The position numbers and the translations under genes were made by a program. Positions 29,301 to 60,965 of a DNA stretch of 64,000 nucleotides are shown here, piece after piece (position 1 is the first letter of the stretch; each line of letters starts with the position of its first letter). Under the pieces are notes generated by a model that searched no databases, was not told the origin of the DNA, and saw only the letters and a list, made by a program, of their open reading frames with translations. Origin of the DNA: a virus (taxonomy: Duplodnaviria > Caudoviricetes); IMG/VR virus record IMGVR_UViG_3300037067_006130, positions 1 through 64,000 of that record, one strand, 5' to 3'.

Positions 29301-32300
29301 CTGAGATTGAGATGTTTAAAAGCAGAGATAACTTTATTAAATTCTGCGAAACAAACGCTAAAAGAGGACTTGTTTTCGATACCAGAGCCATTGGCCATGC
29401 TTTTGCCAACGCTGTCTATATCGATCCTAAAAAGGCATTCCAATCAACTCCTGTACATGAGTACGGACATATCTACTATGATTCATTACCCGATTCGAAT
29501 ACATCAAAGAAAATTCTTCGTCAGCTATTCACCGAAAATGGTTTATCTCTAAGCGAGATTGACGAGAATATCGTATTCGAGATAGGTCGTGCCGGAGTAA
29601 AACTAGCAATCAACCAGTTAGAACTATCCAAGAAAAATAAGTTGGAAAAAGAGTTACCTAAGTTTTGGGAAAGCGTTAAAAAGGTGTGGTCTAAACCTAA
29701 GTTTAAAACGAAGGATGATTTCATTAATGATATCGTCGAACAGATGTGGAATCGTGAACCTAACGAGAATGACCGTTTCAATCAACAGGTAGTTCGTAAT
29801 ATGATTGTTGAGCAGGATCCTAATGGTGATCCAACCTTTGAGGAACGAACGGAACCCGATGGTCATAACTCTCTTTGGGAGAAAGGTGGTAAGCGATTAA
29901 TTACTCCTTCAGGATTAAAATCTATCCTTACTAGCGGTAATCGTTTCAACGAAGAGGACTATATCAAGATTAAACTTCGTCAAACACAACTTGGCGATAG
30001 AAAATCGGTAACCCTTGCTGAAACAAAACGGTTAGAAGCCCAAGTTAAATTTATTACCGAAAGTGGTAATGACGTTCATAGTCTTTGTGCTGCTTACTTC
30101 GAGGAAGATCCTTTCATCAGCAAGGCGCTTATCGCTGAAATTTTAAAGAAAAAAGTAGTTGATGCTAATGAGGTTCTAAAAGGATTGGTAAACCTAAGAA
30201 AGTTTATCGAAACTAAATGGGGTAAAAACGTTAAGTACTATGCAGAACATACTTTTGCTAATGTAAAGAATAGACTTGCAGCAAGACCTGACCTAATCAT
30301 TGAGGTTGCACCAAACGAGTTGGTGTATATGGACTTTAAATCCTCAGACGCGTCTTTCTTTAACAAGGATGGTTCTTATAACGGAAAGGTAACTGAAACA
30401 CATGGACTATTTGGAAAGCCATTAGAATTTGTACCAAACACCATCGAGAATCAGCGTAAAGTACAATTCTCATTGACTAAATATATTCTCGAGAATCAAA
30501 ACAACGGTTCTAAGGAAAAGAACAAAATCGTCGGAATGTATGTAGTACCAATTTCCACCAGCCTCAACATTACTCAAAACGAGGATGGTGATTGGAACTA
30601 CACTATCGAGAACGTGGATATGAAGAAACCTATCCCAATAACTCCGATGACTGATCCAGCGATGAGAGGGATTCAGAAGTTTATCGATAGAACTAAAGAC
30701 CTTGGAAAAAACTATTTAAAACTTAAGAAAGAGTTTGGAAATACCCATAACGATTACGATTTGCACAATACTGGCCAGTTAATGGATATGATGGAAAACA
30801 TCACAAACACAACGCTTGATAAGACAAGTATGTTTGATGTGATGAATATTAACAAGACCGGTATAGCGAATATTGAAGATACTCTTTTAAGCATTTCAGA
30901 GGATGAAGGTGGTAAATCTTATCTTCCTTCAGATATTCATGGCGACAAATCGTTACCATTCGAGGAAATACTAGCAGCATCTAATCCTGAGAATCCTTTG
31001 AATAGAAAGAAGCTTGAGGCGAGTATTTCAGATAATGTGGTGGAATCTATAAAGAGAAAAATAGCACCACTAGAGCATGAGAATTGGGTTGAAAATAGTA
31101 CTGGTCACTTCTACGATCCGATTAGTAAGAAAGGATTTGAAGCGATTGGATATAAGGATTTAGTATCAGAGATAACATCTCCGGCCAAAGTATCGGAAGG
31201 TGATTCTATCGGTATTCCTATTCAATATACAGATTCATCAGGGAATAAACGATTAATCACTGAAATCGCTACGATAAAAAGTATTCATCATGATAGTAAA
31301 TCTCCATCTAAATCGTATGTTATCGCTGAGTCAGAGAATGGAGAGTTTATTCGTCTTGATAGTTTAGATCCTCATGATGGTATTCTACGTGAAGTCAAGA
31401 AGTGGATTACTACAAGTGCTTTTGAAAAGAAAAGAATGCAGGAAAGTCTTGATGCGGTAGAGGAAGCAAAACAATTCCCATACCAACCAACAATGGGATA
31501 TCAAGAGGTTTATAAAAGAAGTAGGCATGTAGTTCCTGAAGGGATTGATATGAATACTCCAAAATCAATGCGGGAATATTCTAGATATCTCGAGATGATT
31601 AAGGAATTTAAAACGCTTAACGATTTTTCTGATATCATAAACAAGGAACCAGAACGAATACTAAAGATTTTCAGAGAGATTCAGTTTAATGATAAGAAGT
31701 ACATAACACCTTTCAAAAAACTTATCATTGAATTAATGCATGCCAAGATGCTTGCTGAACGTATTCGTTTTGAGAATAGAGAAGGTCAACGTGCTTTCCC
31801 TTTGATAACAGGAATGCTTGGTGATTGGATGGTTAATCCCGGTGATAAAATTCTTGAACGCTTATTCGGGCAAATCATTACTAATCCTTCATGGAGAATG
31901 ATTCATACCATTCCTAACTACTTCGTAGCAGAAAACGTTGCGATGGACCACATGACTCATGCTCTATACAAAGAAAACTATGAAATGTCAATGGTTAGTG
32001 ATGAGTTGGCTAAATGGAATTCAAAGATTAAGGCAGATCCAATGTTTAGAATGTCAGATATCATTACAATTCGTAATGGTTCTTGGTATCTTAAACATCC
32101 ATCAACCATAAGTGGAAGCGGATTAGATTCTGAATTTGCGAACTATATCTATGAGAAATGGGAGAAATACGAAGGGGTAAGCCATGATGTTACAAAACCT
32201 ATTCGCATACCATCTCAGTCAGCATCAGTTAGTGAGTTAAATGAACGATATGCAAGTTTAAATCTAGGACCATTACTTACCAGAAGAATTAGAAATGCAT

Positions 32301-34384
32301 CACTACCTGATCCATGGGATAATGAATCAGTAACCTATAAAGGACAAACCAAACGCTTAATTGATTGGAAGAAATATTTTATAGCACAACTCGTTACAAC
32401 CAAACAGTACGACGAAATTTATGGTACTGGCGCTCGTCAGGTTCTATCTCTTGGTGGAAAATTAATGACGATTAATGATGGTGTTCTTAACCAGTTAAGG
32501 TACGAAGCGAGAAAAGAGTACAAAAAGTCAAGCGTAGAGATACTAAGATTAAACTTTGGTAAGGCAAGAGAAACAGCAATTCCTAGCGACAAGGTAATCC
32601 GAGATTTTGAGCAAGGTTTTAAAAAGTTAATTCATGCCTATGCACATGAAGAATCGAATGCAGTTGTAGACTACCTGGCAACTAAAATTCGCAAGATTGA
32701 GCAGGAAAAAAATTCTTCCTATCAGGCAACTGCTGAATACATCAGCAATATGCTTCGCATTATTGGCCATGAGAAAAGGGATATCCCTAACGATTATTTT
32801 AAAGTATTCGATTCGTATATACGATTTACGAACAGAATGTTTTCTCATGTTGTTCTTGGTGCGAATCCAATCGTTCAGTTAGGAAACTATGTTGCTGGTG
32901 ATGCTACTACGCTAATCAGTATGCCTGAAATGCTTATGAAAGGATATAAGGAGGCGATTATCAATCCTAAAAATCTTAAAAAAGCATGGATTCTAATGAC
33001 AGCCTATAAGGTTTTAAACCTAAGTCATAGTTTAAGACTTGAAGATGCTAGTCGTTTAAGACAATGGTTGGATAATAAAGAGTACTGGTTCTTAGATAAA
33101 ACAGAAAAAGCCGTTGCTCTTAAAGTATTCCTTGCCCTATGCGGAAAACAACTTGATGCATACGACAACAATGCTAAACTTATTAAAGGTCGTGAAAAAG
33201 ATGAGATAAGCCTTGAACAGATTAAGTATATCGTTGACATCATGGCTTTCACACAAGGCCCATATAGTACATCATCAAAACCACCTGCAGCGTATTCAAC
33301 AGGTGGAAATCTTGCATTACTATTTAAAGTTTGGATGCTTACTCGTAAGCACGACATGTTTGCTCGACCATATACCGATAAACGAGGTATGGAAAGAGCA
33401 GGATTTATCTCGAGAGAAACAATCGGACTATTGGCCATTGCAAACTTTAACAAAAAGTCTTTTGAGGAAAGGAAACGACTAACCGAAGAGGCCGATCAGA
33501 AACAGTTTAAAGGCTATTTTAGCTACGAAACGTGGTTAGAGCATAAGATGAGGCAGAGTAAATATGAAAAAGGTTCTAATGGGGATTATAAGATTCCTTA
33601 TGATAGGAAAACGCTTGAGAATATTACCAAAGCATCATTAGCGATTGCCTATACCGCACTTGTGTACTATCTAATTCATAAAAAAGAGGATGATGATCCT
33701 TACGGAGAAAAGGCTTCAGCAGATTACTGGTTTAGAACGATAATTCTAGGCCCAGTGGCAACGTTTACTTTCTTAGATCCTGATAAGATCATGAACCCAT
33801 CAAAGCTAAAAGCATCTGATTTTTTTCCTCAGATTAGAGTTTGGGAATCAATGATGAGAGGTGCGTCTGATTTTGGTGGACTTGTATATGAGTTCTTTAA
33901 ACGTCGTTCAGATAAAAATTATCGTAATCCGAATTTATACTACGGAAAAGATAGTAAATCTAAGATGGGTACCGAAGGAGAATCTAGAATTCCTGAAGAT
34001 TTCTTTAATCTGATTGAAATGGGTGGTGTTATGAAGCAAATAGCGATTGCCTACCATCAATATGAATTAGACGATAAATTTCCGTTCTATAAAAAGAAAC
34101 AAACGGTGCTCGATAAGGAGGGTGCCAAGAAATTTAATACTTCAATCGATCTGATTAAGGAGCAACAACGACTAAAAATGACTCCTGAAATGCTCGAAAG
34201 ATATGAGAAAATGCGGATAAAGAGAGATTCTGTAATTAATGCAAGAAAAACTCAGCTATTTGATGCTAAGTTTAAAGAAAATCCGACTAAATTTGAAGAA
34301 ATTAAGAAAGAGGTCGATGATAAGGGTAAACTTTCGGTAAGAAAAACCCAGGCACGTATTAACGCACTACAAAAAAAGAAATAG
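17354..34384 (+). CDS. Giant virion-associated RNA polymerase polyprotein (fused two-barrel RNAP plus accessory domains)
   Basis: 5676-aa uninterrupted ORF. RAGKDFDADG at nt 25208-25222 (residues 2619-2623) matches the DFDID-type catalytic motif of crAss-like vRNAPs, with upstream KRG...TG and DGLAIGS motifs. HELAH at 28433 and HEYGH at 29456; P-loop at 27680; SLOG-like at about 28700; PD...DFK at 30287-30340. Confidence 0.85.
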   Translation: MAYPLGPDNNQSQGFDLFGKIVKPEELELVKKDTTYNETMYNTLAGEGKYPFSSYDQFQKETMDPEIWKKNKEEKLQKDIEEKKRLKDEYMKGQATMQHGDYYNTPEGQELKKKQAEVETSDDDLEKFKIEHTENYKPLVDEFEALDKDPANYEKNIQNFKAKLDSIYGKQSGLAFEKIAIHHVDNVDKSQRERNEDGTYKNPLYKNTSDEITQESAITQQKYLKRSFDEAQKFIQSPEGQDEVMRRVTSQVGDMVKQYKQNYAKLTPAQKISFEQAYNGAIQDELSAVHKEKYSQMMESSAKAVPEEVQQYVSTALKNIRDNAKNSTYEERQKNLELIENTAIGEIKDPELRKKLFSNPEALKEFRSDLRFYMHNNTDYFLDQNGWNPDIVKNNTRYYQDVILKAQTPTKQAMEDHYEQKDNLQKLIGNTVPSKTLANSKTTNEVLLEMLNSPLESWQSLEVDISKAIDSKKDIRLVTQPTLKDNWNAIDISKKIKYDESLSFGENALANIWGIKKTKPFEWTDEKQSRLDSLAKYALGVDTYDKLIDQSIKMSNSMFATEDFKQQELKNQAIWNTQKAVAENAKKQYDELLLERNKGIYEYDRLKRIAESNKPEGEKDGVITRTLTSFAHSLGSVLQGTAEQSIALDNLLSKAGIKSSDSQRSNLRAWSQLGSEVARDLPIAESKKEEFISGLAPYIALAATTILTKNPTVAYASSGAFGYMGVGEATQSIEDYENQTGKTLSERQALGAKAMYALAYTLPMAEYLGKLIPKGLIGKGMATVFKSNPKMFIQSGEEMVNAYLKKYPKALPLLERVLDYGKKMASGTTHSVVTMEAINTMKELGNNWFMEKKWDWDEYLQNSAKSLESGIAFGVLVSPFSIAMANKATRDRRNQQGSVYLAQDKNGNTVEVIHDGKDVYGLSPKGEKVKLTEEQIANQVVVPVKIFDQNVKYFREHGTTDPNINRDVVSESVKTKLNEVSTSDGTVYFTKDNQGNMFLIRGYNKEKGEYSLYTKNFGEVKMSEKDFQANMEQVQKVESDALYRNFMQEYDKNSGIVTEPIVERTKIEETPKAKTETEKVEVEKPKVEKPKTEEITITTDEFQKLGLLEKDTKGEFVPLTIDKAEEKLKEVYSKQNEIPEVNRTEEDMHKLEILDQQEQALTSFIEKEKPSFEKSKPVSVKETPKPVEKVVEEPIVKTGSLKDKAINKFAQNRARSEKNIRNLNEELTTQFGPEFTSKIAEQIDKVTPEAVDGKFVAEQRKADRQFNDYAKKHDEIAGKDFGLSNRVTSPQVEAIKMLEKTAILPKSGMVEIDIHEANDMIFEGVTKIQYLKQNKDNDIQKLSELQSRLFALMASEKTNAYNKETLDFLKSAHTLNEDQLNQKKVDIQKEINKNEKALEKKKEYNLSKRQIESKEKFVKDSKQLLDVIDEEIASKQIKSKEKKVAKAKVEKKPRAKKKPKVKEEVDIETEVKEMMAEHGTAKPKPLKDIISSLEELENAKLYAPKADGSDKYSELFPKIRVDNIKTFIGVIKKAMMDSGMDSFEKAAMEAIRLARQVAKENPKFNTDHPAIEDLFYKLFSFKYEPKNEFQLKVANAVNELFNNSIPKIKAALEEHQHSSSLLTTSEQRLEEQRKNLSPLFDAMARESKLQKNFLEREFHSRVRMGKYKLKDSEDYLKFLDKLEHSTDDFDDYLLSSLYENNVNWDTFLSYLNFYSTVDLHRFESIKIFINGKDANKYERTFLNPEFDLDSLIKPFMSKINNFRIDHKDGTHSEGEKALSTRIGQYINEHNKFVREYDHENPNKAKIFEHDLQFLEDVTGISKEIWRDHYFYDNDKKENETLMRVVDEKGNEKYVKTVFNSFKDIIDFNHYKANESIEDLTSLGIKKIDLPKGSTFVDSKPYYAPDKTSLSSKMMGSFAGKYNTQVGKEKKSNKEFMFDFMTKGVKGVFANIVKLSTSKKGGLGLMVRDLDGKQFAAYVQDFPALKTLKKAFDVQEHPFMQKLKKLGVQPTIMYQQGIKGYDFEKGNKKENSIENQHISPEDFWVSQMIQFFDGDKTYYANAGQFSDRKMLLHVNAPKLSRTKSPVASEKWLTENLPDYEDVVQAYISDYGERIKTTFNIDHAGLENFVKDFVYNFARNTKDLMEIIHGNLKQYDGGFIQILKRGATRTSTGLGTIPTSGIPREFKVMVAEDLKELGFNDSEFAVMDGLAIGSSKFMANYGKNLGSIYNRVLELGDFKTSKSLVDFLDDKGMRTICKANFVDISVFVDTFGGAKWKALADFMDKNGIDVFTTDKAVKLNGSKLLDNPHSSSKGSLALFKKDGTLNDIPTEHIEKFKQTWSLDNVISQQELRKKVGAEGKGKVPIQLKTNLIALPSFSGYLEHVNKQIDITLAELEKKFNGMTKPEEIKSFVIELFTKEFANVTIDPDTGEENILDSEGSKLDPKNLEGNALLVYRRLSSGASINEPFIRESIVRKVLSYIEREGLTLDGNRQGTYLIPDVFGHLKDYRPSKDSRYTLLPQVAANLPGGRYPKFFVTEKEAISHIEKNSKQHSDLYNDKGKLNDWEVEEVDGKFMVPGEMVFVNFVPGTNYHSHPLGRLTLRSVGNSSSVSATLASRAGKDFDADGAYLLFLFKDKQGNIILDESKKGRSNQSILAIKKDFNDSNNLQMLMNPIDTEKYDVPVLKVIDKLYPPDKSRTFDKKLYWHPWALQEARIISLDGVNLKAIATNHATTYSYLNAIKPDIKKFTAKNGKQYTTSFPIPRYDDKGKQQGSIKLDGIPEDVFNVYKEHHGNITNLCFDNMTDPKIGRMGYNVWTSNLFEFALINDSSLSSKNYKTAQLLDKAVTQRIKELSIFFNRPVFKMFAVECDRFNKSNEFYSTSEVQKLAFTEVERMFNSKEPADVVALDKLMKYSSDLNVIKGVQKLTEQTPKSYEEYAASLDSIKRLMTNGLYFYDTRAFLNDTQRELTPLLENAIKSLMAAENLAFKKSIETSKIAQFVVHEIKNKIALEKGSERGVWLGTETVKKIMNNLQAFISLNALVKDVEPGTIADKLINDFPMYKTKFMNNKFMDFVQVEDRADITDIKNIKLREEKTIQVPTIFRTINLTPEQLKEIHDDFDALPAELKDALYTYMIYEHGIKNAITTGTYYQFMSDKFLNEKAKVIESEMQRWEQNDFGELTAGQISQVLVDNIKEFLKGNRGKVRFKYETKHKYDVQDLKNNFSEFVGSFSLADHQKYANIKTEAQFIKFIEAKGVTYEDFKTALIYHITENGIKVNPKTMISDYFSNPENFVKVEKMDHKMASADNITGKDTTTLVESEKGNRTASTRSFPLGSFKNENLAYAEKDIPGRLIRLEGGKELYVVEKVEQLTKDVLADPTFPERWSKKELWTPEYFKKVLGGPTVHEGSWQTTWRKIDRSELKMAHAGGNKVANELPIDYHGSIVFASIGTGKSVFVSQKQGVLDADDLLREILDDHGIEYDVNNFGLKGYENIDTIWDDLRQLLTDKLNEGHTIFGSNFFLLHEDLGKDLVKYALLEKDTNLLHDRTTQRAKAEGRNEIQIDYLNRRVRQEVDAFKDLGKNRKELGGKFVSDHFNPETQSKLGNISEKVVFGKLEVINTNQGRTNELSLKDLSERILTMNPEIEKLVNKLILSYPNSKVILYLDKIDPLGSAALGTDNNIEMYKDSVGEGFEQRLYHELAHLETKDKINKDKQLRSELEKLLALSRKETTTPGLYGYSNVHDFAAEYISNPEFKKELSGAIVNKLDKLFKDKEIKNQYTNQTTTGIIKIISGGQLGVDMAGLDAAKEIGIETGGTAAAGYKQSVSKEKNINNKNLKITYGLKEGKTTRRQGKFGEYNDVYHQRTIDNAQEADGTIWFGKEDSPGGKLTLGREAQRGKPEPLVNPNNVKEIKDWVINNNIKILNVAGNREWTNPGIYNKARRILVDALKSNGDIIKNQLPKTAHEALLTNDPELAEFMIDHLVKSFPEIEMFKSRDNFIKFCETNAKRGLVFDTRAIGHAFANAVYIDPKKAFQSTPVHEYGHIYYDSLPDSNTSKKILRQLFTENGLSLSEIDENIVFEIGRAGVKLAINQLELSKKNKLEKELPKFWESVKKVWSKPKFKTKDDFINDIVEQMWNREPNENDRFNQQVVRNMIVEQDPNGDPTFEERTEPDGHNSLWEKGGKRLITPSGLKSILTSGNRFNEEDYIKIKLRQTQLGDRKSVTLAETKRLEAQVKFITESGNDVHSLCAAYFEEDPFISKALIAEILKKKVVDANEVLKGLVNLRKFIETKWGKNVKYYAEHTFANVKNRLAARPDLIIEVAPNELVYMDFKSSDASFFNKDGSYNGKVTETHGLFGKPLEFVPNTIENQRKVQFSLTKYILENQNNGSKEKNKIVGMYVVPISTSLNITQNEDGDWNYTIENVDMKKPIPITPMTDPAMRGIQKFIDRTKDLGKNYLKLKKEFGNTHNDYDLHNTGQLMDMMENITNTTLDKTSMFDVMNINKTGIANIEDTLLSISEDEGGKSYLPSDIHGDKSLPFEEILAASNPENPLNRKKLEASISDNVVESIKRKIAPLEHENWVENSTGHFYDPISKKGFEAIGYKDLVSEITSPAKVSEGDSIGIPIQYTDSSGNKRLITEIATIKSIHHDSKSPSKSYVIAESENGEFIRLDSLDPHDGILREVKKWITTSAFEKKRMQESLDAVEEAKQFPYQPTMGYQEVYKRSRHVVPEGIDMNTPKSMREYSRYLEMIKEFKTLNDFSDIINKEPERILKIFREIQFNDKKYITPFKKLIIELMHAKMLAERIRFENREGQRAFPLITGMLGDWMVNPGDKILERLFGQIITNPSWRMIHTIPNYFVAENVAMDHMTHALYKENYEMSMVSDELAKWNSKIKADPMFRMSDIITIRNGSWYLKHPSTISGSGLDSEFANYIYEKWEKYEGVSHDVTKPIRIPSQSASVSELNERYASLNLGPLLTRRIRNASLPDPWDNESVTYKGQTKRLIDWKKYFIAQLVTTKQYDEIYGTGARQVLSLGGKLMTINDGVLNQLRYEARKEYKKSSVEILRLNFGKARETAIPSDKVIRDFEQGFKKLIHAYAHEESNAVVDYLATKIRKIEQEKNSSYQATAEYISNMLRIIGHEKRDIPNDYFKVFDSYIRFTNRMFSHVVLGANPIVQLGNYVAGDATTLISMPEMLMKGYKEAIINPKNLKKAWILMTAYKVLNLSHSLRLEDASRLRQWLDNKEYWFLDKTEKAVALKVFLALCGKQLDAYDNNAKLIKGREKDEISLEQIKYIVDIMAFTQGPYSTSSKPPAAYSTGGNLALLFKVWMLTRKHDMFARPYTDKRGMERAGFISRETIGLLAIANFNKKSFEERKRLTEEADQKQFKGYFSYETWLEHKMRQSKYEKGSNGDYKIPYDRKTLENITKASLAIAYTALVYYLIHKKEDDDPYGEKASADYWFRTIILGPVATFTFLDPDKIMNPSKLKASDFFPQIRVWESMMRGASDFGGLVYEFFKRRSDKNYRNPNLYYGKDSKSKMGTEGESRIPEDFFNLIEMGGVMKQIAIAYHQYELDDKFPFYKKKQTVLDKEGAKKFNTSIDLIKEQQRLKMTPEMLERYEKMRIKRDSVINARKTQLFDAKFKENPTKFEEIKKEVDDKGKLSVRKTQARINALQKKK

Positions 34385-51789: not shown

Positions 51790-54330
51790 TTAGATTTTAA
51801 AGTTAGGATCATACTTATGATCGGATATCATCTTTTGTTTAATCTTGGAATACTGTCCGTTAAGAACCGTTCCTGATACATCATAACCCCATTCTGATAA
51901 CTTCTTTAGCTGCCAGTACTGGGCAGGTTCATTAGAGATTAGTTCGTTACACATACCCTTAGTGTATTCCACATCGGGTTCCCATAGACCAAGCTTCTTT
52001 AGATAGTCTAGCTGAGCAGGTGTAGCTAAGTCCTGAGTCCACTCACCACCGTAAATCTTTAGTTCTGGTAGTTTAAGTAGGTTGATACGACCATCCTGTT
52101 TAACCTTAGTGTCAATCTTCGCTTCTCTACGCTGCTTCTCGGCAAAGAGAAGTTTCTCTTTATTCTCTTTGGTAACAAAGGTTTTTTCTTTTGCGGTCTT
52201 GCCCTTATCGAGAGTCCATGTATTGATTAGGTTGTGCTTGCCGGAATTGTCTACAAAGTCAAGAATCTTACAGTCATTCAAACCGTACTTCGTTCTAAAC
52301 TCAGGACTTTTTAAACGGCATCCTCTACCAATCGACTGCATGTAGAAAGTTAGCGATTGGGTAGGTCTAGCCATTAGCACAGCACCTACATCTGCGTAAT
52401 CCCATCCTTCAATGAGAATCTGTACGTTCAAAAGCACCTTCGTTTCTTTGCCCCTAAATCGGCTATTTACGCCTTTACGGTCAGGACAAACGTTTTCATC
52501 CGCAACGAGTATTTCGCATGAAATTCCGCTTTGTATGAATGCTTCTCGAAGGTGTATCGCATGAAGGACATCAACACAAAAACCGATAGCCTGTCTATCA
52601 CTACAATATTTCTGATAGGATTCAACGATAAGCTTATTTCTTTCCTTAGTATCAACTAGGTTAGATAACTCATTAATCTTGAAGTCGCCAGCCTGTCGAT
52701 GTACCTTAGAAAGATCTGTTTCTGTCTTAATACGAATACCATCAAGCTCACAAAGAAATCCATCCTCTATCGCTTTGGCGATATTATACTCAAAGGTGAT
52801 ATCGTCAAATAAATCCGCAAGAGATAGTCCATCCAACCGATATGGAGTAGCAGTCCAACCAACGGTTAGCTGTGGTTTAAAATGCTGTACCGCTTTCACC
52901 CATGTACGAGCAAGGTATCGATGACAATTATGTACTAATATATTTTCTACGAAATAGTTGTTATTATCTTCTACTTCCAGATTGTAGACAAAATTGTCTG
53001 AACCACTAAGTTTGGATTTAGATCTACTTCTTCGTTTGTAAATCTTAGAACAGTCCAACCCAACGAATTCAAAACGTTCGTTTTCCGTTTGTCTAAGAAC
53101 TTCCAACGTTTTAACTTGTGAGTTTTTCCATCTATTTCTATCGCAAGTTTCGAGGGAGGATCGGCTAGATCTACTTTGTAATGATATGGCAAACAAGTTT
53201 CTGAAGACGTTTGATTTTTCGTTAGGATCACATATTCCATTGGAAGTTCTGTCAGGTTGTGAATCATTAATTGTTGCTTCGTTAGTTGACCATTTCCTCC
53301 GCGAGAAAGGAATGTTTTTCCTTGCATACTTCGAATCATCTTTGTCTTGGCTTCCGGATTGAACATCGGATTGTTTTTCTTCATTCTTTCCGAACAATCC
53401 CTTTTGTTTACTAGTATCATTGATTTTCTTGCAATTCCCTTGAAGTACTCCTTTTTGCATTTGATAGAACAGCAACCAGAACCTCTTATAACTGAAGCCA
53501 TGAATGTTTTCCGTTTTCTTCCTTCTTTGGCCCAAGACTCCCAACCAAATATTTTTCCACAGTTGTTGCAAACCAAAGTTGGATTTAATCTTAATTTTGT
53601 TTTTCTTGCTTTTTCGCAAATAGAAGAACAAGTTTCTCTGTGTGTCTGAGAATGAAACTTTATTCCACAATTTTTGCATATACCTGAACGTAATCGAGTC
53701 ATATAGATAGCACATTGATGTATGGCAAGTATATGACAAGTATATTTCTTTTGCAAGGCAATAACCTATTTTGTTTATATAAATAGGATGGTTCTTTGTG
53801 CAAGAAAATACTCCAAAATCGTATAGATACTTTGGTTTTTCTTTAACAATCACATTTATTACTTTTTTTAGTTCAATGCGATTTTCTTGATGATTAAAAG
53901 AATGAACATAATCACCAATTTCTATGATTTCTATTGGTTGTTTATCAACCAAGGTTCCTGCGGGAAAACATTCGTCAATCTGTACCAAGGCGAAATGGTT
54001 TGGGCTAATCCTATCCAGTCGGTTAATCAACGTTTGAGGAGAGGCAACCACGACTTTCTTATCAATCTCAAATCGTGATCCCTTGATTACCCCAACGTTC
54101 ATAAACCCATGGAACTTCTCCATGTCTTTCACTGCCTGCTCAATCAACTCTTCGCTATGAGCTAAGAACAGGCTATTCTTAAACTTGGTAGATACGTTGA
54201 CCGCCGCAATTCGCTTGCCCGTTCCGGTAGCTTGTATAACTAACTGTCGTTTAAGCCCTTTCTCCTTAAAAGCGGTGTGTATCGCCTTAAAGCAGGCAAC
54301 CTGATATGGTCGCCAATTTACGTCAATCAT
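51790..54330 (-). CDS. SF2 (Res/DEAD-like) helicase precursor containing an intein
   Basis: RPYQ, ATGTGK, motif II DE|CH split by the intein, TATP, NVQILIEGWD, MARPT, YMQSIGRG.R; mature protein 498 aa. Confidence 0.92.
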   Translation of the reverse strand: MIDVNWRPYQVACFKAIHTAFKEKGLKRQLVIQATGTGKRIAAVNVSTKFKNSLFLAHSEELIEQAVKDMEKFHGFMNVGVIKGSRFEIDKKVVVASPQTLINRLDRISPNHFALVQIDECFPAGTLVDKQPIEIIEIGDYVHSFNHQENRIELKKVINVIVKEKPKYLYDFGVFSCTKNHPIYINKIGYCLAKEIYLSYTCHTSMCYLYDSITFRYMQKLWNKVSFSDTQRNLFFYLRKSKKNKIKIKSNFGLQQLWKNIWLGVLGQRRKKTENIHGFSYKRFWLLFYQMQKGVLQGNCKKINDTSKQKGLFGKNEEKQSDVQSGSQDKDDSKYARKNIPFSRRKWSTNEATINDSQPDRTSNGICDPNEKSNVFRNLFAISLQSRSSRSSLETCDRNRWKNSQVKTLEVLRQTENERFEFVGLDCSKIYKRRSRSKSKLSGSDNFVYNLEVEDNNNYFVENILVHNCHRYLARTWVKAVQHFKPQLTVGWTATPYRLDGLSLADLFDDITFEYNIAKAIEDGFLCELDGIRIKTETDLSKVHRQAGDFKINELSNLVDTKERNKLIVESYQKYCSDRQAIGFCVDVLHAIHLREAFIQSGISCEILVADENVCPDRKGVNSRFRGKETKVLLNVQILIEGWDYADVGAVLMARPTQSLTFYMQSIGRGCRLKSPEFRTKYGLNDCKILDFVDNSGKHNLINTWTLDKGKTAKEKTFVTKENKEKLLFAEKQRREAKIDTKVKQDGRINLLKLPELKIYGGEWTQDLATPAQLDYLKKLGLWEPDVEYTKGMCNELISNEPAQYWQLKKLSEWGYDVSGTVLNGQYSKIKQKMISDHKYDPNFKI
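52927..53970 (-). mobile_element. Intein (348 aa) inserted in helicase motif II
   Basis: Starts CFPAGT (Cys1 at 53968-53970), block B CTKNHPI, ends VYNLEVEDNNNYFVENILVHN, followed by Cys+1. Removal restores DECH. Confidence 0.93.
52971..53702 (-). CDS. DUF559/Vsr-like endonuclease encoded in an alternative frame inside the intein
   Basis: Frame differs by 1 from the helicase/intein. Two CxxC...C zinc-ribbon motifs, NUMOD-like RMKKNNPM, YKVDLA...LAIEIDGKTH...DKRKTNVLNSLGWTVLRF. ATG 53702 (TTG 53756 possible). Confidence 0.85.
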   Translation of the reverse strand: MTRLRSGICKNCGIKFHSQTHRETCSSICEKARKTKLRLNPTLVCNNCGKIFGWESWAKEGRKRKTFMASVIRGSGCCSIKCKKEYFKGIARKSMILVNKRDCSERMKKNNPMFNPEAKTKMIRSMQGKTFLSRGGNGQLTKQQLMIHNLTELPMEYVILTKNQTSSETCLPYHYKVDLADPPSKLAIEIDGKTHKLKRWKFLDKRKTNVLNSLGWTVLRFTNEEVDLNPNLVVQTILSTIWK

Positions 54331-57050: not shown

Positions 57051-57779
57051 CTATACCGTATTAATATTCATTTCACCTAGATTAAAGTAAAGCTGATTGT
57101 AGGGTAGGTAAAGGTTACAGATAAAGTCCTTAATCATCCCTGCAGCAAAGGTGGCCATGTGTAGGTTAATAAATAAATCCTGCTTAGCTAGCGCTTCGAA
57201 TACAGAACAACTTGGGCCTTGTTCCTCTTTACTTCCAATCATATCCTCCATGAAGGGGAATACATCGAATACATGGGTTGCCCTACGTTTGGCAATCTCA
57301 TCTGAGAATTGTCCAAAGATAATCTGGCCAAAATCACGACCATTCCCAATATCCATCCAGTGCCTAAATAACGGTACTTTCTGAATCATTCTTCGTGCGG
57401 GAATATTATCCACGCATGAAATGGTTATCCCCTCATCATCATCATCCCAATGACCGATATACTTTGCGACCTCGCTATCAAACATCACCGGAAAGTACTC
57501 CCACTGAAATCCGTAGACATGGTTAATCGATTCAATCAGCGCTTGACACTTCATCTGATCAACCTGGCCATGAGAAAATGGTTGACGACCAACATTGGTT
57601 GAGGATATCTTATCCCCATCGAAGGCCCAAACTTTTATTCCTTTATAGCCTAATCGGATTATCGTTTCATTCACTGATACCAATCGGTTGATTAGATGTG
57701 CTCCTGTTCCACCTGTACCTATCACGACTACGTTGATAAGCATCCGTTCGGGTAGTAAATCACCTGCGTATATTTTCAT
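57051..57779 (-). CDS. PRTRC system ThiF-family (E1-like) protein
   Basis: VIGTGGTG, FDGDKISSTNVGRQPF, SCVDN..AR, WMDIGNGRDFGQ, GPSCSVFEALAKQDLFIN. Confidence 0.92.
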   Translation of the reverse strand: MKIYAGDLLPERMLINVVVIGTGGTGAHLINRLVSVNETIIRLGYKGIKVWAFDGDKISSTNVGRQPFSHGQVDQMKCQALIESINHVYGFQWEYFPVMFDSEVAKYIGHWDDDDEGITISCVDNIPARRMIQKVPLFRHWMDIGNGRDFGQIIFGQFSDEIAKRRATHVFDVFPFMEDMIGSKEEQGPSCSVFEALAKQDLFINLHMATFAAGMIKDFICNLYLPYNQLYFNLGEMNINTV

Positions 57780-58468
57780 CGTATGCTCGTTTTAAGTTGA
57801 AATGGTTCCATATCCCTCTGCTTATAGGTAAAGGATTTTGCCTTTGCCCATTTGAATCCAGTTGCATCAGCATGACTATTGAATGAGGATGCCCAAAACG
57901 CATCGTAGTAAGCATCCATCGTTTCACCAATGGTCATACCATCCTTTAACGTTACAGAACCTCCCATACAAACATTACCACTCATACCAATATTGGGTAG
58001 ATTGCAACCAACGAACCCTGCTCCTTTACGTTCGTAGACGTACAGCGAACTACCCTCGATTAGATAGTAGAACTTAGGAACATTCTTCAGCAGTTTCTTT
58101 TCGCCTTTGTAGTATATCCACTTTTCCTTTGCAGGTTCATCGACGAACATGATTGACTTTAAACTTCTCGAGAGGAAGAGAACAGGAAATCGGAATATGA
58201 GCATCTGCTCAGGAAGAAAATTCTTCTCCTTCTCCTGCCTGACCACTCGTAGAATGTTCTTGGCAAATCGTACCATAAAGTTAATCGTTACCGGAACGAA
58301 ATTACCAAGTAGGCCATGCTTTACTTCAGCGATCTCATAGTACTCTTTTCCGTCTGTTCTCGCGAAACAAGCCATAACATACTTAAGTTTTACCTTCGTG
58401 GATATTAGTTCTGATGCCGATTCACCGAGATACTGTTTATAGTTATATTCTTGTTGGGCTTTTTTCAT
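57776..58468 (-). CDS. PRTRC system protein B (prokaryotic E2 family D-like)
   Basis: LPNIGMSGNVCMG...YYDAFWASSFNSH matches the NV...G.VC.G...F..S.F.H pattern; ATGA-coupled to ThiF. Confidence 0.8.
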   Translation of the reverse strand: MKKAQQEYNYKQYLGESASELISTKVKLKYVMACFARTDGKEYYEIAEVKHGLLGNFVPVTINFMVRFAKNILRVVRQEKEKNFLPEQMLIFRFPVLFLSRSLKSIMFVDEPAKEKWIYYKGEKKLLKNVPKFYYLIEGSSLYVYERKGAGFVGCNLPNIGMSGNVCMGGSVTLKDGMTIGETMDAYYDAFWASSFNSHADATGFKWAKAKSFTYKQRDMEPFQLKTSIR

Positions 58469-59933
58469 TGCTATACAGCTCGTTAAAATTATTCATGAAT
58501 ACTAGTGCTGATTCCGAAAAGACATCAATGTACTTCCAAATTTTTTTGTACTCCTGGTTTATCTTTTCGTACCGATATGTACCGTTGATCTTTCTAATCT
58601 GAAATCCATCCGCACATATTTCCTCAAACAGGTCAGCGCCATCCTTCCAAATCATATCGTGGTAATGCTCCATTCTCCAATCATCGTAGTAGCTCGATTC
58701 GTAGAATATGTTATAGTACTGACGAATTCTATCGCGAAAGAATGTTAAAGAACATGCCGATTCGTCTATCCCACTATCATCCTCCTGACTCTCGATTAGA
58801 AAGTAGTGAAGTAGTTGTCTATCCTTACGAACCTTTTCAATCTCTTCAACAAGTAAGGCGGTTAGATTCTCTACCCTAACATTCATGACTAGGTTGGCCT
58901 TCATATGGGTTAACCATTTTACTAAAAATCCACCTATTCGGTAGAAGTTCTCGTAATACTCCAAGCGTAACCCTTTAGAGAGCATTGTAGTCATTTTCTG
59001 TTGGGCTTTGTAGACAAACCTATTATTCGTCACCATCTCGCCATACTGCCCTGTAATCATTTGGTAGCTGGTATGATCCTGCTCACTTCTACATCGTAAT
59101 AGGTAGATGAAACTGCTATCGATATCATTATCATCATTCCCTTCCAATTCCTCTAGCCATTCCCAAAAGTCAGTCTCATCGAAGTCAACACGCTCTTTGG
59201 CCTCTTTGATTAGCTCTATCATCTTGAGCATATTCGTCTGACAACCATCGTCATCTATACCCATCTCCATCTCCATCAGCTCACTTTGCCGTTGGTCGCT
59301 AGAGAAATCGTAGATATAGGCAATGTATTCGATTGCCCAGGTAATCAGCTTAACTATTTTCTTGTAGGAATACCCTGATTCGAGCATTGATTTTCGGACT
59401 AGATCATCCTGAGCCGGAACATCCTCGTAGACGGATAGTAGTATTTTAGTACTACACCTAAAGACATCCTCTATACCCATTAGGTCAACCTTATACTCGG
59501 CTTTAAGGTACATCTCGATATCCTTGCCAACACTCGCTTCGTAATGAGTAAGCATATCTGTCGGAATGTGTTTCTTGATTAGCTCTGAAAAAAACTGAAT
59601 GTACTCCTGAACGTTTAACTTACTCGGATCAACCTTAGAGGTTACCAAGTCTTTTTCAGTAGGACAAACTAAACGGTATACCTCGTAAACAAAGATGGCT
59701 GCTTCTCGCCATCCTTTCGGGGTGTGTAGCTCTAAACGAGAACCCGCTAGATTATACTCTAACGGGTTCCATTTTATCTTACCACCAATAAGTTTTCTTA
59801 TATCATCGTGCCAACCGGGTACATCCCGCCAGCCTCCCGAATTGGGTACTTGCTTACTTCGGGAAGTTCCAATCGGCTTTCTAATCCTTTTGAAAACTCT
59901 CTTGGCGATTTCTTGTTCTGTTGCCTCGCCCAT
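58443..59933 (-). CDS. Large acidic helical protein at the PRTRC protein F position
   Basis: 496 aa between the protein C and protein B homologues; assigned by synteny only. Confidence 0.45.
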   Translation of the reverse strand: MGEATEQEIAKRVFKRIRKPIGTSRSKQVPNSGGWRDVPGWHDDIRKLIGGKIKWNPLEYNLAGSRLELHTPKGWREAAIFVYEVYRLVCPTEKDLVTSKVDPSKLNVQEYIQFFSELIKKHIPTDMLTHYEASVGKDIEMYLKAEYKVDLMGIEDVFRCSTKILLSVYEDVPAQDDLVRKSMLESGYSYKKIVKLITWAIEYIAYIYDFSSDQRQSELMEMEMGIDDDGCQTNMLKMIELIKEAKERVDFDETDFWEWLEELEGNDDNDIDSSFIYLLRCRSEQDHTSYQMITGQYGEMVTNNRFVYKAQQKMTTMLSKGLRLEYYENFYRIGGFLVKWLTHMKANLVMNVRVENLTALLVEEIEKVRKDRQLLHYFLIESQEDDSGIDESACSLTFFRDRIRQYYNIFYESSYYDDWRMEHYHDMIWKDGADLFEEICADGFQIRKINGTYRYEKINQEYKKIWKYIDVFSESALVFMNNFNELYSNEKSPTRI

Positions 59934-59960
59934 CGTTTAAAGTGTCGTCTTGGATTAAAA

Positions 59961-60179
59961 CTATCCTTTTTCGCCTGCAACTGTTCGGAATTCATAGTCA
60001 ACTTCGCCATTCTTCCCTTGTGTTGGACCGATTACGGTTGCGTTTGTAATTGATGGGTGCTTTCCCGACAGAATCTTTTTCACCTCAATGACTGAACCTC
60101 CGGGTAAAGGATCTTTCTCGGTAATCTTTGTCTTACCGTCATTGATGATGAAGTTTCTTACTGCTCTTTGTAGTGCCAT
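59961..60179 (-). CDS. PRTRC system protein C (ubiquitin-like beta-grasp)
   Basis: 72 aa; DPLPGGS..EVKKILS..HPSITNATVIGP...YEFRTVAGEKG with the characteristic C-terminal GxKG. Confidence 0.88.
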   Translation of the reverse strand: MALQRAVRNFIINDGKTKITEKDPLPGGSVIEVKKILSGKHPSITNATVIGPTQGKNGEVDYEFRTVAGEKG

Positions 60180-60182
60180 AGT

Positions 60183-60965
60183 TTATCCCCAGTTTTCTTC
60201 TGTTTGGTCGGTTTCTGTTGCTTCGGTAGTTTCTTTAGGTTCATCAGGGTTGGATTCGTTCTGGTTGAACAACTCGTTCTTAGGAGTAGTATCAACAGCT
60301 TTACCCTTATTTACTGTAGTCTTGGTGGTCGTCTTTGCGGCATCCTCCTTCTTTACATCAGGTTTCTTCGCATCAGCCACTTTCTTCTCGGCTATCTTAA
60401 CAGCTTCCTTCTCGAGAGATATCTTCTGCTCGATTAACGCTTGAAGATCGGCAACCTTAGCCTTAACGGAAACGAATTCCTTAATCTGAGGTAGCACGTT
60501 CATCATGATTTCCTGAGCAGTACCGAACATGGTCACATCAATACCAGGTTTAATCGTGATGAGCAAATCAATCCTCTTGGGTTGTGTAGCACTTGGAGTA
60601 AGCGTTAACTTCTCGATGATATCACATACCGATTCCCAACCTGATAGGTCGAAGATAACCCCAACTCCGGGTTTTATTGCAGCATTCCCTTTCTCTTCGG
60701 TTGGGCCTTTAATGACTTCATTGCTCTTTTCCACAACTTTGTTCTGTTCTGTACTTGCAGCAACTTCGCTGAAGTATAGTTCAAAAGAAGATTGTTTCAG
60801 CTTTACTTGAGTTACACCATCAATGATGGTATACCCGAAGCCAATAGCATCGTTAATCTTTTCCTTTTCAAAACCATACTTCTTACCGATGGTTAACTTG
60901 TTTACGGGCGCGTTAGCGTCATCCGAATGTGAGTTTAGAACACAAAATCCTTTTACAGGTGCCAT
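60183..60965 (-). CDS. PRTRC system protein E-like, with extra N-terminal domain
   Basis: Central DVTMFGTAQEIMMNVLPQI resembles the protein E GT.EELD motif; low-complexity K/T/E tail; directly upstream of protein C. Confidence 0.6.
   Translation of the reverse strand: MAPVKGFCVLNSHSDDANAPVNKLTIGKKYGFEKEKINDAIGFGYTIIDGVTQVKLKQSSFELYFSEVAASTEQNKVVEKSNEVIKGPTEEKGNAAIKPGVGVIFDLSGWESVCDIIEKLTLTPSATQPKRIDLLITIKPGIDVTMFGTAQEIMMNVLPQIKEFVSVKAKVADLQALIEQKISLEKEAVKIAEKKVADAKKPDVKKEDAAKTTTKTTVNKGKAVDTTPKNELFNQNESNPDEPKETTEATETDQTEENWG

What the first reader, a model, noticed from the sequence alone, without database searches (positions are those of the whole stretch)
52927..53970. Intein whose homing endonuclease is written in a second, fully overlapping reading frame
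Seen: the intein frame stays open for 348 codons, but its middle about 240 codons read as motif-less sequence. The other frame over the same DNA encodes a coherent zinc-ribbon + NUMOD-like + DUF559/Vsr-type nuclease (52971-53702) whose TAG sits inside the block F codons NLEV. Established: canonical inteins carry the endonuclease (usually LAGLIDADG or HNH) in frame between splicing blocks. Inference: a free-standing nuclease gene invaded a mini-intein and both frames are now kept open. The splicing frame needs only to avoid stops, while the nuclease needs its own internal start or a frameshift. The insertion site in motif II (DE|CH) makes helicase activity depend on splicing.
Basis: partly seen in the sequence, partly recalled or inferred. 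Interest (0 to 1): 0.8.

Follow-up and report, generated by a model that had tools for sequence, protein, structure and literature searches.

The report
Helicase intein with overprinted homing endonuclease
A crAss-like phage helicase gene carries a self-splicing intein whose middle, read one base out of step, is also a complete gene for the DNA-cutting enzyme that spreads the intein; the double coding is real, kept by selection and shared by a large, mostly unannotated intein family, though the general layout has been described before.

Summary
On the minus strand, a 348-codon intein (53970-52927) interrupts motif II (DE|CH) of an SF2 helicase (54330-51790). A 243-codon ORF in the +1 frame (53702-52971) encodes two FCS-type zinc fingers and a Vsr/DUF559 nuclease.

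Both frames are under selection:
- Synonymous shuffling of the nuclease ORF predicts 21-25 stops in the helicase frame. There are none (0 of 2000 shuffles).
- The nuclease frame folds with pLDDT 90.6. The same DNA in the intein frame gives pLDDT below 50.
- In related pairs, substitutions move from helicase codon position 3 (flanks) to nuclease codon position 3 (nested part).

The layout is the normal state of a large family. It holds in 84 of 88 viral loci, 63 of 80 cellular-genome loci and six isolated phages. The frame is always +1, and the site is always the Walker B motif of SF2, SNF2 or DnaX-type ATPases.

The closest relative of this helicase has an empty DEAH site. Independent metagenomes carry a near-identical intein, without indels, inside about 5% diverged exteins. 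Both point to recent homing.

Out-of-frame intein endonucleases are already published (Gorbalenya 1998; Gogarten-lab preprints 2025-26), so this is a new variant, not a new kind. This scan has already reported the family on other DNA (21 notes in at least 18 genomes).

The parts
51790..54330 (-). SF2 (ResIII-type) helicase precursor gene, 846 codons plus stop, continuous through the intein
   Evidence: Pfam ResIII 5.9e-21 and Helicase_C, PHROG 16 DNA helicase 2.3e-60
53971..54330 (-). N-extein (aa 1-120), ending ...QIDE (Walker B / motif II)
52927..53970 (-). Intein, 348 codons (C121...HN468)
   Evidence: In alignment A4 (55 host-frame inteins) C1, H61 (block B TxxH) and N348 are invariant. 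The A4 profile matches solved inteins: 7CFV 3.4e-24, 8UBS, 6QAZ.
53719..53970 (-). N-terminal splicing part of the HINT domain (intein residues 1-84, blocks A and B)
   Evidence: AF2 pLDDT 87-98; profile positions 4-96 match solved inteins
53071..53718 (-). Helicase-frame linker (intein residues 85-300): open, motif-less, predicted disordered; overlaps the nuclease gene
   Evidence: AF2 pLDDT below 50 for most of residues 86-297; no Pfam hit; conservation lower than in the +1 frame
52927..53070 (-). C-terminal splicing part (intein residues 301-348, blocks F and G, ...LVHN). Residues 301-335 are also read as the nuclease C-terminus (dual constraint).
52924..52926 (-). +1 extein Cys codon (C469, DE|CH), the nucleophile for splicing
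   Evidence: all 14 intein-bearing crAss-type homologues read DE|CH
51790..52926 (-). C-extein (aa 469-846 plus stop)
52971..53702 (-). Homing-endonuclease gene in the +1 frame: ATG 53702, 243 codons, TAG 52973-52971
   Evidence: AF2 mean pLDDT 90.6
53616..53678 (-). First zinc finger of the nuclease (C9, C12, C25, C29)
   Evidence: sequence; present in most family members
53457..53570 (-). Second, FCS-type zinc finger (C45, C48, C78, C82; invariant or nearly so)
   Evidence: weak L24e/MYM finger matches; PF06467 on some homologues
53289..53387 (-). Conserved RMKxNNPM (aa 106-113) and RGGNG (aa 134-138) motifs of the nuclease. Their shadow in the helicase frame is NExKQS / RRKW.
52974..53297 (-). 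Vsr/DUF559 catalytic domain (aa 136-243). E189, D191, G192, H195 and D204 (53091-53138) and G215, W216, R220, F221, N223 are invariant.
   Evidence: Pfam; invariant columns; 3HRL Z 12.2, I-Bth0305I 3R3P Z 10.8, Vsr 1CW0 Z 10.0; profile against PDB

Best explanation
This is a mobile class-1 intein in motif II (DE|CH) of a crAss-like phage SF2 helicase. Its homing endonuclease is a separate gene, overprinted in the +1 frame on the intein's linker.

Shown:
- The helicase frame is kept free of stops by selection.
- Its N-terminal 84 and C-terminal about 48 residues form a HINT domain with all splicing residues.
- The roughly 215 residues between them are unstructured filler.
- The same DNA in the +1 frame encodes a conserved nuclease with two zinc fingers and a Vsr/DUF559 domain. 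In relatives this frame is under purifying selection.
- The layout is ancestral to a large family.

Inferred:
- The 846-aa precursor is translated straight through. The HINT halves fold around the looped-out linker and splice to give a 498-aa helicase with DECH restored.
- The nuclease is translated on its own from ATG 53702.
- It cuts intein-less DExH alleles of co-infecting relatives near the insertion site, and recombinational repair copies the intein and nuclease in.
For: Dual coding:
- The shuffle test gives 0 of 2000 stop-free shuffles against an expected 21-25 stops, and the same result in 20 other loci.
- T3 depletion is p=8e-15.
- AF2 gives pLDDT 90.6 for the +1 product, against below 50 for the in-frame linker, with the HINT parts above 90.

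Nuclease identity:
- Pfam DUF559, E=5.9e-14.
- 3HRL Z 12.2, I-Bth0305I Z 10.8, Vsr Z 10.0.
- Invariant E189/D191/H195/D204 in 62 sequences.

Intein identity:
- Invariant C1, H61 and N348, plus the +1 Cys.
- Profile hits to solved inteins down to 3.4e-24.

Selection by frame:
- In related pairs, mismatches sit at helicase codon position 3 in the flanks but at position 1 (= nuclease position 3) in the nested part. L004/L005 give 12/5/49, 17/4/2 and 8/2/58 (p=3e-10). L043/L046 give p=8e-19.
- crAss-type relatives L090-L092 share 56-60% identity in the nuclease frame and 40-50% in the helicase frame.

Recurrence:
- The nuclease is nested, and always at helicase frame +1, in six isolated phages, 84 of 88 viral loci and 63 of 80 cellular-genome loci.

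Internal start:
- An ATG lies 1-20 codons before the first CxxC in most of the 83 loci scored.
- GAGG/AGGAGG sits 6-9 nt upstream in Vibrio, Pseudomonas and other phages.
- In L061, L076 and L087 a +1-frame stop abuts the ATG.

Mobility:
- The closest homologue (86% identity) has an empty QIDE|AHRY site. Most homologues are about 500 aa and lack the intein.
- Extein and intein identities are incongruent.
- Contigs from four studies show no indel. They differ by at most 3 letters across the intein, but by about 5% in the C-extein.
Against: - There is no experimental or expression evidence for this phage: splicing, nuclease translation and cleavage are all untested.
- No Shine-Dalgarno sequence precedes ATG 53702. 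This is expected only if the host is a Bacteroidota-type bacterium, which was not shown. A sigma-70-like match upstream is no better than chance.
- The frame-specific substitution test could be run only on other clades of the family. The window's own relatives are either too distant (about 60% aa) or nearly identical.
- The window's block F reads DNNNYF where the family consensus has His. This is shared with a sub-clade, and its effect on splicing is unknown.
- The read evidence comes from low-depth contigs, not raw reads.
Confidence: 0.8

Rival explanations
1. The nuclease is not initiated internally. It is made by a programmed +1 ribosomal frameshift from the helicase frame, giving an N-extein/IntN/nuclease fusion.
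For: In the window the +1 frame is open for 18-21 codons upstream of the ATG. No SD precedes the ATG. One relative (L084) has N-extein and IntN fused in frame to the nuclease.
Against: In several relatives a +1-frame stop lies 0-4 codons before the ATG. Many have a well-placed SD. No conserved slippery site was seen. The frame is the same everywhere by descent, so it says nothing about mechanism.
Confidence: 0.07
2. The window's copy is a late stage of the homing cycle: the nuclease or the splicing activity is already dead and the frames are open only because the insertion is recent.
For: Block F lacks the consensus His. The nuclease is about 15-20 residues shorter at its C-terminus than in L090-L092. 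No direct selection test was possible on this lineage.
Against: All invariant residues of both proteins are intact. AF2 confidence is 90.6. Zero stops against an expected 21-25 cannot be recency alone, because the arrangement is ancient. The single variant inside the nested part (53076) falls at nuclease codon position 3.
Confidence: 0.07
3. The nested nuclease serves the phage in another way than homing, for example exclusion of competing phages or host DNA attack, and its place in the intein is incidental.
For: Free-standing relatives exist (L009, L117, L121). DUF559 proteins are widespread in cells.
Against: The association with one intein family at one kind of site is strict. Distribution among close helicase homologues is sporadic. 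A near-identical intein sits in diverged exteins. The free-standing relatives lie directly beside intein-less copies of the same helicase family, as homing endonuclease genes do.
Confidence: 0.05
4. Assembly or sequencing artefact: the nuclease is really in frame, and two compensating indels were introduced.
For: None beyond the metagenomic origin of the record.
Against: Contigs from four independent studies show no indel. The same +1 layout occurs in complete genomes of isolated phages and in about 147 other loci.
Confidence: 0.01

Closest known systems
Non-canonical actinobacteriophage inteins (Gosselin, Arsenault, Gogarten; bioRxiv 10.1101/2025.01.02.630785)
   Same: A contiguous, splicing-competent intein whose endonuclease is a separate ORF overlapping the region between the splicing blocks. 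VSR-like/EDxHD nucleases are among them. The proposed origin is invasion by a free-standing endonuclease gene.
   Different: Their VSR-like endonucleases are on the antisense strand, and their only sense-strand case is an endonuclease VII-like ORF in frame 3. Their hosts are DNA polymerase, minor capsid, terminase and thymidylate synthase, and they call the layouts rare. Here the VSR-like gene is on the sense strand, always +1, in Walker B of helicases and clamp loaders, and common.
Cyanobacterial dnaX intein with an out-of-frame LAGLIDADG endonuclease (Phillips, DeSimone, Gogarten, bioRxiv 10.64898/2026.09.14.751524; Gorbalenya 1998 as cited there)
   Same: Sense-strand overlapping endonuclease ORF. 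There is low constraint on the extein frame in the overlap and purifying selection on the nuclease frame. Some family members here also sit in DnaX-type clamp loaders. The nearest solved HINT domain is the Spl DnaX mini-intein.
   Different: That nuclease is LAGLIDADG, in a '+2 ORF', in cellular dnaX. Here it is zinc finger plus Vsr/DUF559, at +1, mainly in phages.
Fractured genes: split inteins flanking a free-standing Vsr-like or GIY-YIG endonuclease gene (Dassa et al. 2009, PMC2677866)
   Same: The same nuclease family lies inside an intein of phage DNA-metabolism genes. The endonuclease 3' end overlaps the downstream intein part. The NrdJ-1 and gp41-1 inteins are among the closest solved HINT domains.
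   Different: There the host gene is broken by a stop and a restart, and splicing is in trans. Here the host frame runs through and splicing must be in cis. L057 (one stop in the linker) may be an intermediate.
I-Bth0305I, EDxHD homing endonuclease of a group I intron (Taylor et al. 2011, PMC3239194; PDB 3R3P)
   Same: Catalytic-domain fold (Z 10.8, rmsd 2.4 over 87 residues, 28% identity; profile E=1.2e-3), with an N-terminal DNA-binding region ahead of it.
   Different: It is carried by an intron, not an intein, and is not overprinted on another coding frame.
ShiLan-type out-of-frame HNH insertions in phage methylases (Arsenault et al. 2025, PMC11855218)
   Same: A homing endonuclease ORF is hidden in another frame of an insertion that leaves the host frame open.
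   Different: That insertion has no splicing domain and a different nuclease family. Here a complete HINT domain brackets the insert.

Membership tests
Class 1 intein (HINT domain) | N-terminal Cys/Ser nucleophile and block B TxxH | tested here: met
   C1, T58 and H61 are invariant or nearly so in 55 aligned inteins
Class 1 intein (HINT domain) | C-terminal His-Asn followed by Cys/Ser/Thr in the extein | tested here: met
   ...LVHN|C in the window; [HS]N|C or S in nearly all nested loci with a readable junction
Class 1 intein (HINT domain) | HINT fold formed by the N- and C-terminal parts | tested here: met
   The profile matches solved inteins in two stretches, 7CFV 3.4e-24. AF2 pLDDT is above 90 for residues 1-80 and 325-348.
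Class 1 intein (HINT domain) | In-frame insertion at a conserved site, with the host protein continuous in intein-less homologues | tested here: met
   L089 reads QIDE|AHRY uninterrupted. Most homologues are about 500 aa and intein-less; 87 of them show an uninterrupted DExH.
Class 1 intein (HINT domain) | Protein splicing demonstrated | not testable with these tools
   Needs expression of the precursor
Vsr-like / EDxHD homing endonucleases (DUF559, PF04480; I-Bth0305I) | Sequence membership above the curated threshold | tested here: met
   PF04480 52.3 bits against a cut-off of 20.6; 3HRL 2.8e-13 and 3R3P 1.2e-3 with the family profile
Vsr-like / EDxHD homing endonucleases (DUF559, PF04480; I-Bth0305I) | Vsr-type nuclease fold | tested here: met
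   Z 12.2 (3HRL), 10.8 (3R3P), 10.0 (1CW0) over residues 136-243. Foldseek E-values alone were weak.
Vsr-like / EDxHD homing endonucleases (DUF559, PF04480; I-Bth0305I) | Conserved acidic/His active-site residues | tested here: met
   E189, D191, H195 and D204 are invariant in 62 sequences. Their catalytic roles are assigned by homology only.
Vsr-like / EDxHD homing endonucleases (DUF559, PF04480; I-Bth0305I) | Site-specific cleavage of the element-free allele | not testable with these tools
   Needs a cleavage assay on a QIDE|AHRY-type site
Non-canonical inteins with an out-of-frame endonuclease | Contiguous intein frame plus a complete endonuclease ORF in another frame between the splicing blocks | tested here: met
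Non-canonical inteins with an out-of-frame endonuclease | Purifying selection on the endonuclease frame, relaxed in the host frame | tested here: met
   Shown in relatives. For the window's own lineage there is only one informative variant.
Non-canonical inteins with an out-of-frame endonuclease | Same nuclease type, strand and frame as a described case | tested here: not met
   Described cases are antisense VSR-like, frame-3 EndoVII-like and +2 LAGLIDADG. Here it is sense +1 VSR-like.
Fractured genes (split intein plus free-standing endonuclease gene) | Host gene broken by a stop and a new start on either side of the endonuclease gene | tested here: not met
   The helicase frame has no stop over 846 codons
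Canonical bifunctional intein | Endonuclease domain in frame with the splicing domain | tested here: not met
   The in-frame middle has no domain and pLDDT below 50. The nuclease is at +1.

The most novel reading that the evidence does not exclude
Sense-strand +1 overprinting of a zinc-finger/Vsr-type endonuclease is the obligatory, ancient and stable state of a large intein family, not a passing intermediate. The family has hundreds of loci, is mostly invisible to gene callers, and targets the Walker B DExH motif of SF2, SNF2 and DnaX-type ATPases. It is a third solution beside in-frame fusion and gene fracture. It never resolves into an in-frame fusion, perhaps because this nuclease must act as a free multimer. 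Homologous free-standing, nested, stop-interrupted and N-fused states all exist, giving a testable series for how bifunctional and split inteins arise.
Probability: 0.55. Interest if true: 0.65.

Novelty: new variant of a known kind. Interest (0 to 1): 0.58.

Why it matters
- It gives a clean natural case of about 730 bp of true dual coding, with different kinds of constraint in each frame: stop avoidance in one, protein function in the other, and both over about 35 codons.
- It shows that a whole family of homing endonuclease genes goes uncalled in phage annotation, because a longer ORF covers them. Only 111 called relatives were found in a 5.8-billion-protein collection, mostly on roughly 1-kb contigs.
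- It supplies related free-standing, nested, stop-interrupted and frame-fused states. These bear on the long-standing 'splicing first, endonuclease later' model of intein origin, and on how split inteins form.
- In practice, helicases and clamp loaders of this type should be annotated as intein precursors with a nested gene.

Tried and rejected
- blastn of the gene against the phage collection found nothing.
- Pfam gave no NUMOD family at E<=1, so the 'NUMOD-like' label is dropped.
- Foldseek against PDB gave no hit at E<=0.001, although the top three hits were the expected ones. The VIA re-alignment settled it.
- The sigma-70 promoter scan found one 9/12 match ending 26 nt before the ATG, but the count in the region (4) is no higher than in shuffles (4.8). 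This is no evidence for an internal promoter.
- No Bacteroides-type TAnnTTTG motif lies upstream of the ATG.
- There are no tRNA genes in the window, so nothing points to stop-codon recoding. Reading through the TAG would add only 7 residues.
- No RNA holder is listed among the sequencing runs. The runs labelled RNA-Seq are probably DNA, so nothing can be said on expression.
- DNA for P0004 and P0007 could not be fetched.
- Gorbalenya 1998 is not held, so it is cited only through later papers.
- A formal dN/dS on the window's own clade was not attempted. L090-L092 are saturated at about 60% aa identity, and the metagenomic variants are nearly identical.
- I first took the intein as 53967-52924, one codon off, and corrected it to 53970-52927.
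Full report
**What is in the window**

The minus strand of 54330..51790 is one 846-codon ORF without stops. Its ends are an SF2 helicase: Pfam ResIII 5.9e-21 and Helicase_C, PHROG 16 'DNA helicase' 2.3e-60. After ...QIDE (aa 120) the sequence changes to CFPAGT..., and it returns to the helicase at ...LVHN|CHRYLART. I first placed it one codon off and corrected this.

In the +1 frame of the same strand an ORF is open over 53756..52971. Its first ATG is at 53702 and its TAG at 52973-52971, inside the helicase codons of ...YNLEVED. Pfam places the C-terminal 67 residues of this product in DUF559 (E=5.9e-14, 52.3 bits, cut-off 20.6). Pfam finds nothing in the in-frame middle of the insert. The record is an 86-kb IMG/VR virus contig. 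Other notes on the genome describe a crAss-like virion RNA polymerase.

**Is it more than chance?**

I held the nuclease protein fixed and redrew synonymous codons, either from extein codon usage or by permuting the ORF's own codons. This gives a mean of 24.7 or 21.5 stops in the helicase frame, and 0 of 2000 shuffles were stop-free. The observed number is zero.

The mechanism is visible in the sequence. A helicase-frame stop can arise only when a nuclease codon ending in T precedes one starting with AA, AG or GA. T is used at 0 of 78 such places, against 76 of 185 elsewhere (p=8e-15). The same holds in 20 other loci tested. The third frame is open for at most 47 codons.

**Both products, by structure**

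With a 62-sequence alignment the +1 product folds at mean pLDDT 90.6. Residues 136-243 superpose on these solved structures:
- the DUF559 protein 3HRL (Z 12.2, rmsd 1.3);
- the homing endonuclease I-Bth0305I, 3R3P (Z 10.8, rmsd 2.4, 87 residues, 28% identity);
- Vsr, 1CW0 (Z 10.0).

The family profile also finds 3HRL (2.8e-13) and 3R3P (1.2e-3) by sequence. E189, D191, G192, H195, D204, G215, W216, R220, F221 and N223 are invariant in 62 sequences. So are three of the four cysteines of the second zinc finger; the fourth is nearly invariant.

The in-frame product, with a 55-sequence alignment, has pLDDT above 90 only for residues 1-80 and 325-348. It is below 50 for most of residues 86-297. Its profile matches solved inteins in two stretches: Spl DnaX mini-intein 3.4e-24, NrdJ-1, gp41-1 and others. 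C1, H61 of block B and N348 are invariant. One stretch of DNA is therefore a folded enzyme in one frame and a looped-out linker of a HINT domain in the other.

**The layout is a family trait**

tblastn of the nuclease against isolated phages hit 40 records, every one under a CDS annotated as helicase or hypothetical protein. I opened six:
- Corynebacterium phage phi673;
- Pseudomonas phage MR14;
- Vibrio phages CP-T1, 159E43-1b, 104E43.1 and 1.194.O.

In all six the helicase frame has no stop, and the nuclease homologue occupies the +1 frame.

A profile scan of IMG/VR found 467 relatives. Of 88 loci examined, 84 have the nuclease fully nested in a 690-2196-aa open frame, always at host frame +1. 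A scan of species-representative genomes found 228 relatives. Of the best 80, 63 are nested in the same way. The rest are mostly weak generic DUF559 hits.

Nearly all nested loci have the junctions DE|CF..T... and ...VYNLEVEDNHNYFANGILV[HS]N|C or S. Eight host ORFs were scanned with Pfam. They include ResIII-type helicases, SNF2 helicases, a helicase-methylase fusion and DnaX-type clamp loaders. In each case the insert splits the ATPase domain next to a DE (Walker B / motif II) motif.

**Selection by frame**

In pairs of related loci, mismatches fall at helicase codon position 3 in the exteins and splicing ends. In the nested part they fall at position 1, which is nuclease position 3.

| Pair | N-flank (pos 1/2/3) | Nested part | C-flank | Fisher p |
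|---|---|---|---|---|
| L004/L005 | 12/5/49 | 17/4/2 | 8/2/58 | 3e-10 |
| L043/L046 | 48/32/106 | 93/22/31 | 46/20/127 | 8e-19 |

Sixteen of the other 17 pairs show the same direction.

In three crAss-type helicases with the same intein (L090-L092), identity to the window is 56-60% in the nuclease frame and 40-50% in the helicase frame over the same DNA.

Column conservation is higher in the nuclease frame throughout the nested part. The 'motifs' of the linker (NExKQS, RRKW) are shadows of RMKxNNPM and RGGNG. Only at intein residues 301-335 are both frames conserved. There the nuclease motif GW.VLRF.N lies over HINT strands and the start of block F.

**How the nuclease is made**

An ATG lies 1-20 codons before the first CxxC in most of the 83 loci scored. 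GAGG or AGGAG(G) sits 6-9 nt upstream in the Vibrio, Pseudomonas and several metagenomic phages. In L061, L076 and L087 a +1-frame stop directly abuts the ATG, and in others it lies 1-4 codons before it. This favours internal initiation over frameshifting. The window's own ATG has no SD, and no promoter match better than chance. That fits a Bacteroidota-type host, but the host was not established.

**Mobility**

Most of the 120 closest C-extein homologues are about 500 aa and lack the intein. Fourteen carry this intein, and all of those read DE|CH.

The closest homologue (P0003, 86% identity) has an empty motif II site, QIDE|AHRY. It carries instead a canonical in-frame LAGLIDADG intein in Walker A.

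Extein and intein similarity disagree. P0006 is 68% identical in the extein but 45% in the intein. P0031 is 50% and 54%.

Contigs from four independent studies were laid on the gene:
- They show no insertion or deletion.
- They differ by at most 3 letters across 1.1-1.5 kb spanning the intein.
- They differ by about 5% in the C-extein, with 33 of 35 listed sites at codon position 3.
- The one variant inside the nested part (53076) is at nuclease position 3.

This is the expected mark of recent homing. The caveat is that these are low-depth contigs. The intein is also lower in G+C (0.34) than the exteins (0.41-0.45).

**Relatives in other states**

- L117 and L121 carry free-standing homologues directly upstream of intein-less helicases of the same type.
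- L057 has a single stop in the linker.
- L084 has N-extein and IntN in frame with the nuclease, and the rest in another frame.
- L097 is a decayed remnant.

**What is known**

Out-of-frame or antisense endonuclease ORFs inside contiguous inteins were noted by Gorbalenya in 1998; that paper is not held and is cited through later ones. Three recent papers develop the theme:
- Gosselin et al. 2025 describe antisense LAGLIDADG, antisense VSR-like and frame-3 EndoVII-like ORFs, in polymerase, capsid, terminase and ThyX genes.
- Phillips et al. 2026 describe the dnaX intein with a +2 LAGLIDADG ORF.
- Arsenault et al. 2025 describe hidden HNH ORFs without a splicing domain.

Dassa et al. 2009 described Vsr-like endonuclease genes between split-intein halves. 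Yutin et al. 2021 mention inteins in crAss-like phages but not this layout. I found no paper describing a sense-strand +1 VSR-like endonuclease in Walker B inteins, nor its abundance.

Earlier notes of this scan report the same family on other DNA: 21 notes in at least 18 genomes. I reached the same reading independently before consulting them.

**Verdict**

It is a member of a large family that is a new variant of a known kind. Splicing, translation of the nested gene and cleavage specificity remain inferred.

Noticed in passing
L089:1501-4020 (protein P0003): The closest relative of this helicase (86% identity in the C-extein) has an empty motif II (DEAH). It carries a different, canonical in-frame LAGLIDADG intein in Walker A (ATG|C...HN|TGK). 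P0101 (1139 aa) appears to carry both inteins.
   Followed up: partly
L057:2300-4000: This is the only viral locus where the host frame has a stop (a single one) inside the linker, while both splicing ends and the nuclease are intact. It may be a step towards a split intein or fractured gene, or a sequencing error.
   Followed up: partly
L084:2341-3900: N-extein and the N-terminal intein part are in the same frame as the nuclease, giving one 397-codon ORF. The C-terminal intein part and C-extein are in another frame. This is either a frame-fused or split variant, or a pseudogene.
   Followed up: partly
L117:2998-4927 and L121:1558-2883: Free-standing homologues of the nuclease (about 215 aa) lie immediately upstream of intein-less helicases of the same type (DESHH / DECHH uninterrupted). 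This is the arrangement expected of a free-standing homing endonuclease gene next to its target.
   Followed up: partly
proteins P0003-P0121: Among intein-less homologues the residue after DE is A (43), C (13), V (10), G, S, I and others. The 13 intein-less DECH alleles could be footprints of precise intein loss or pre-adapted sites.
   Followed up: no
L041:729-4835: An SNF2 helicase precursor of 1369 aa carries a LAGLIDADG_3 domain at aa 384-448 as well as the nested-nuclease intein at aa 622-1030, so two inteins sit in one gene.
   Followed up: no
L061, L072, L075, L078, L081; also L125, L129, L130, L132, L136: The same intein-plus-nuclease unit sits in the Walker B motif of DnaX-type clamp loaders (Pfam confirmed for L061 and L072 only; the others are judged from their junction motifs). 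The nearest solved HINT domain is the Spl DnaX mini-intein (7CFV). This suggests switching between ATPase families through the shared DE-x-H site.
   Followed up: partly
window 52927-53970 against flanks: G+C is 0.337 in the intein (0.291 in its N-terminal part) against 0.447 in the N-extein and 0.409 in the C-extein, consistent with foreign origin.
   Followed up: partly
window 57051-60965 and 17354-34384: Other first-stage notes on this window describe a PRTRC-like ubiquitin-type cassette and a 5,676-aa virion RNA polymerase polyprotein. Neither was examined here.
   Followed up: no
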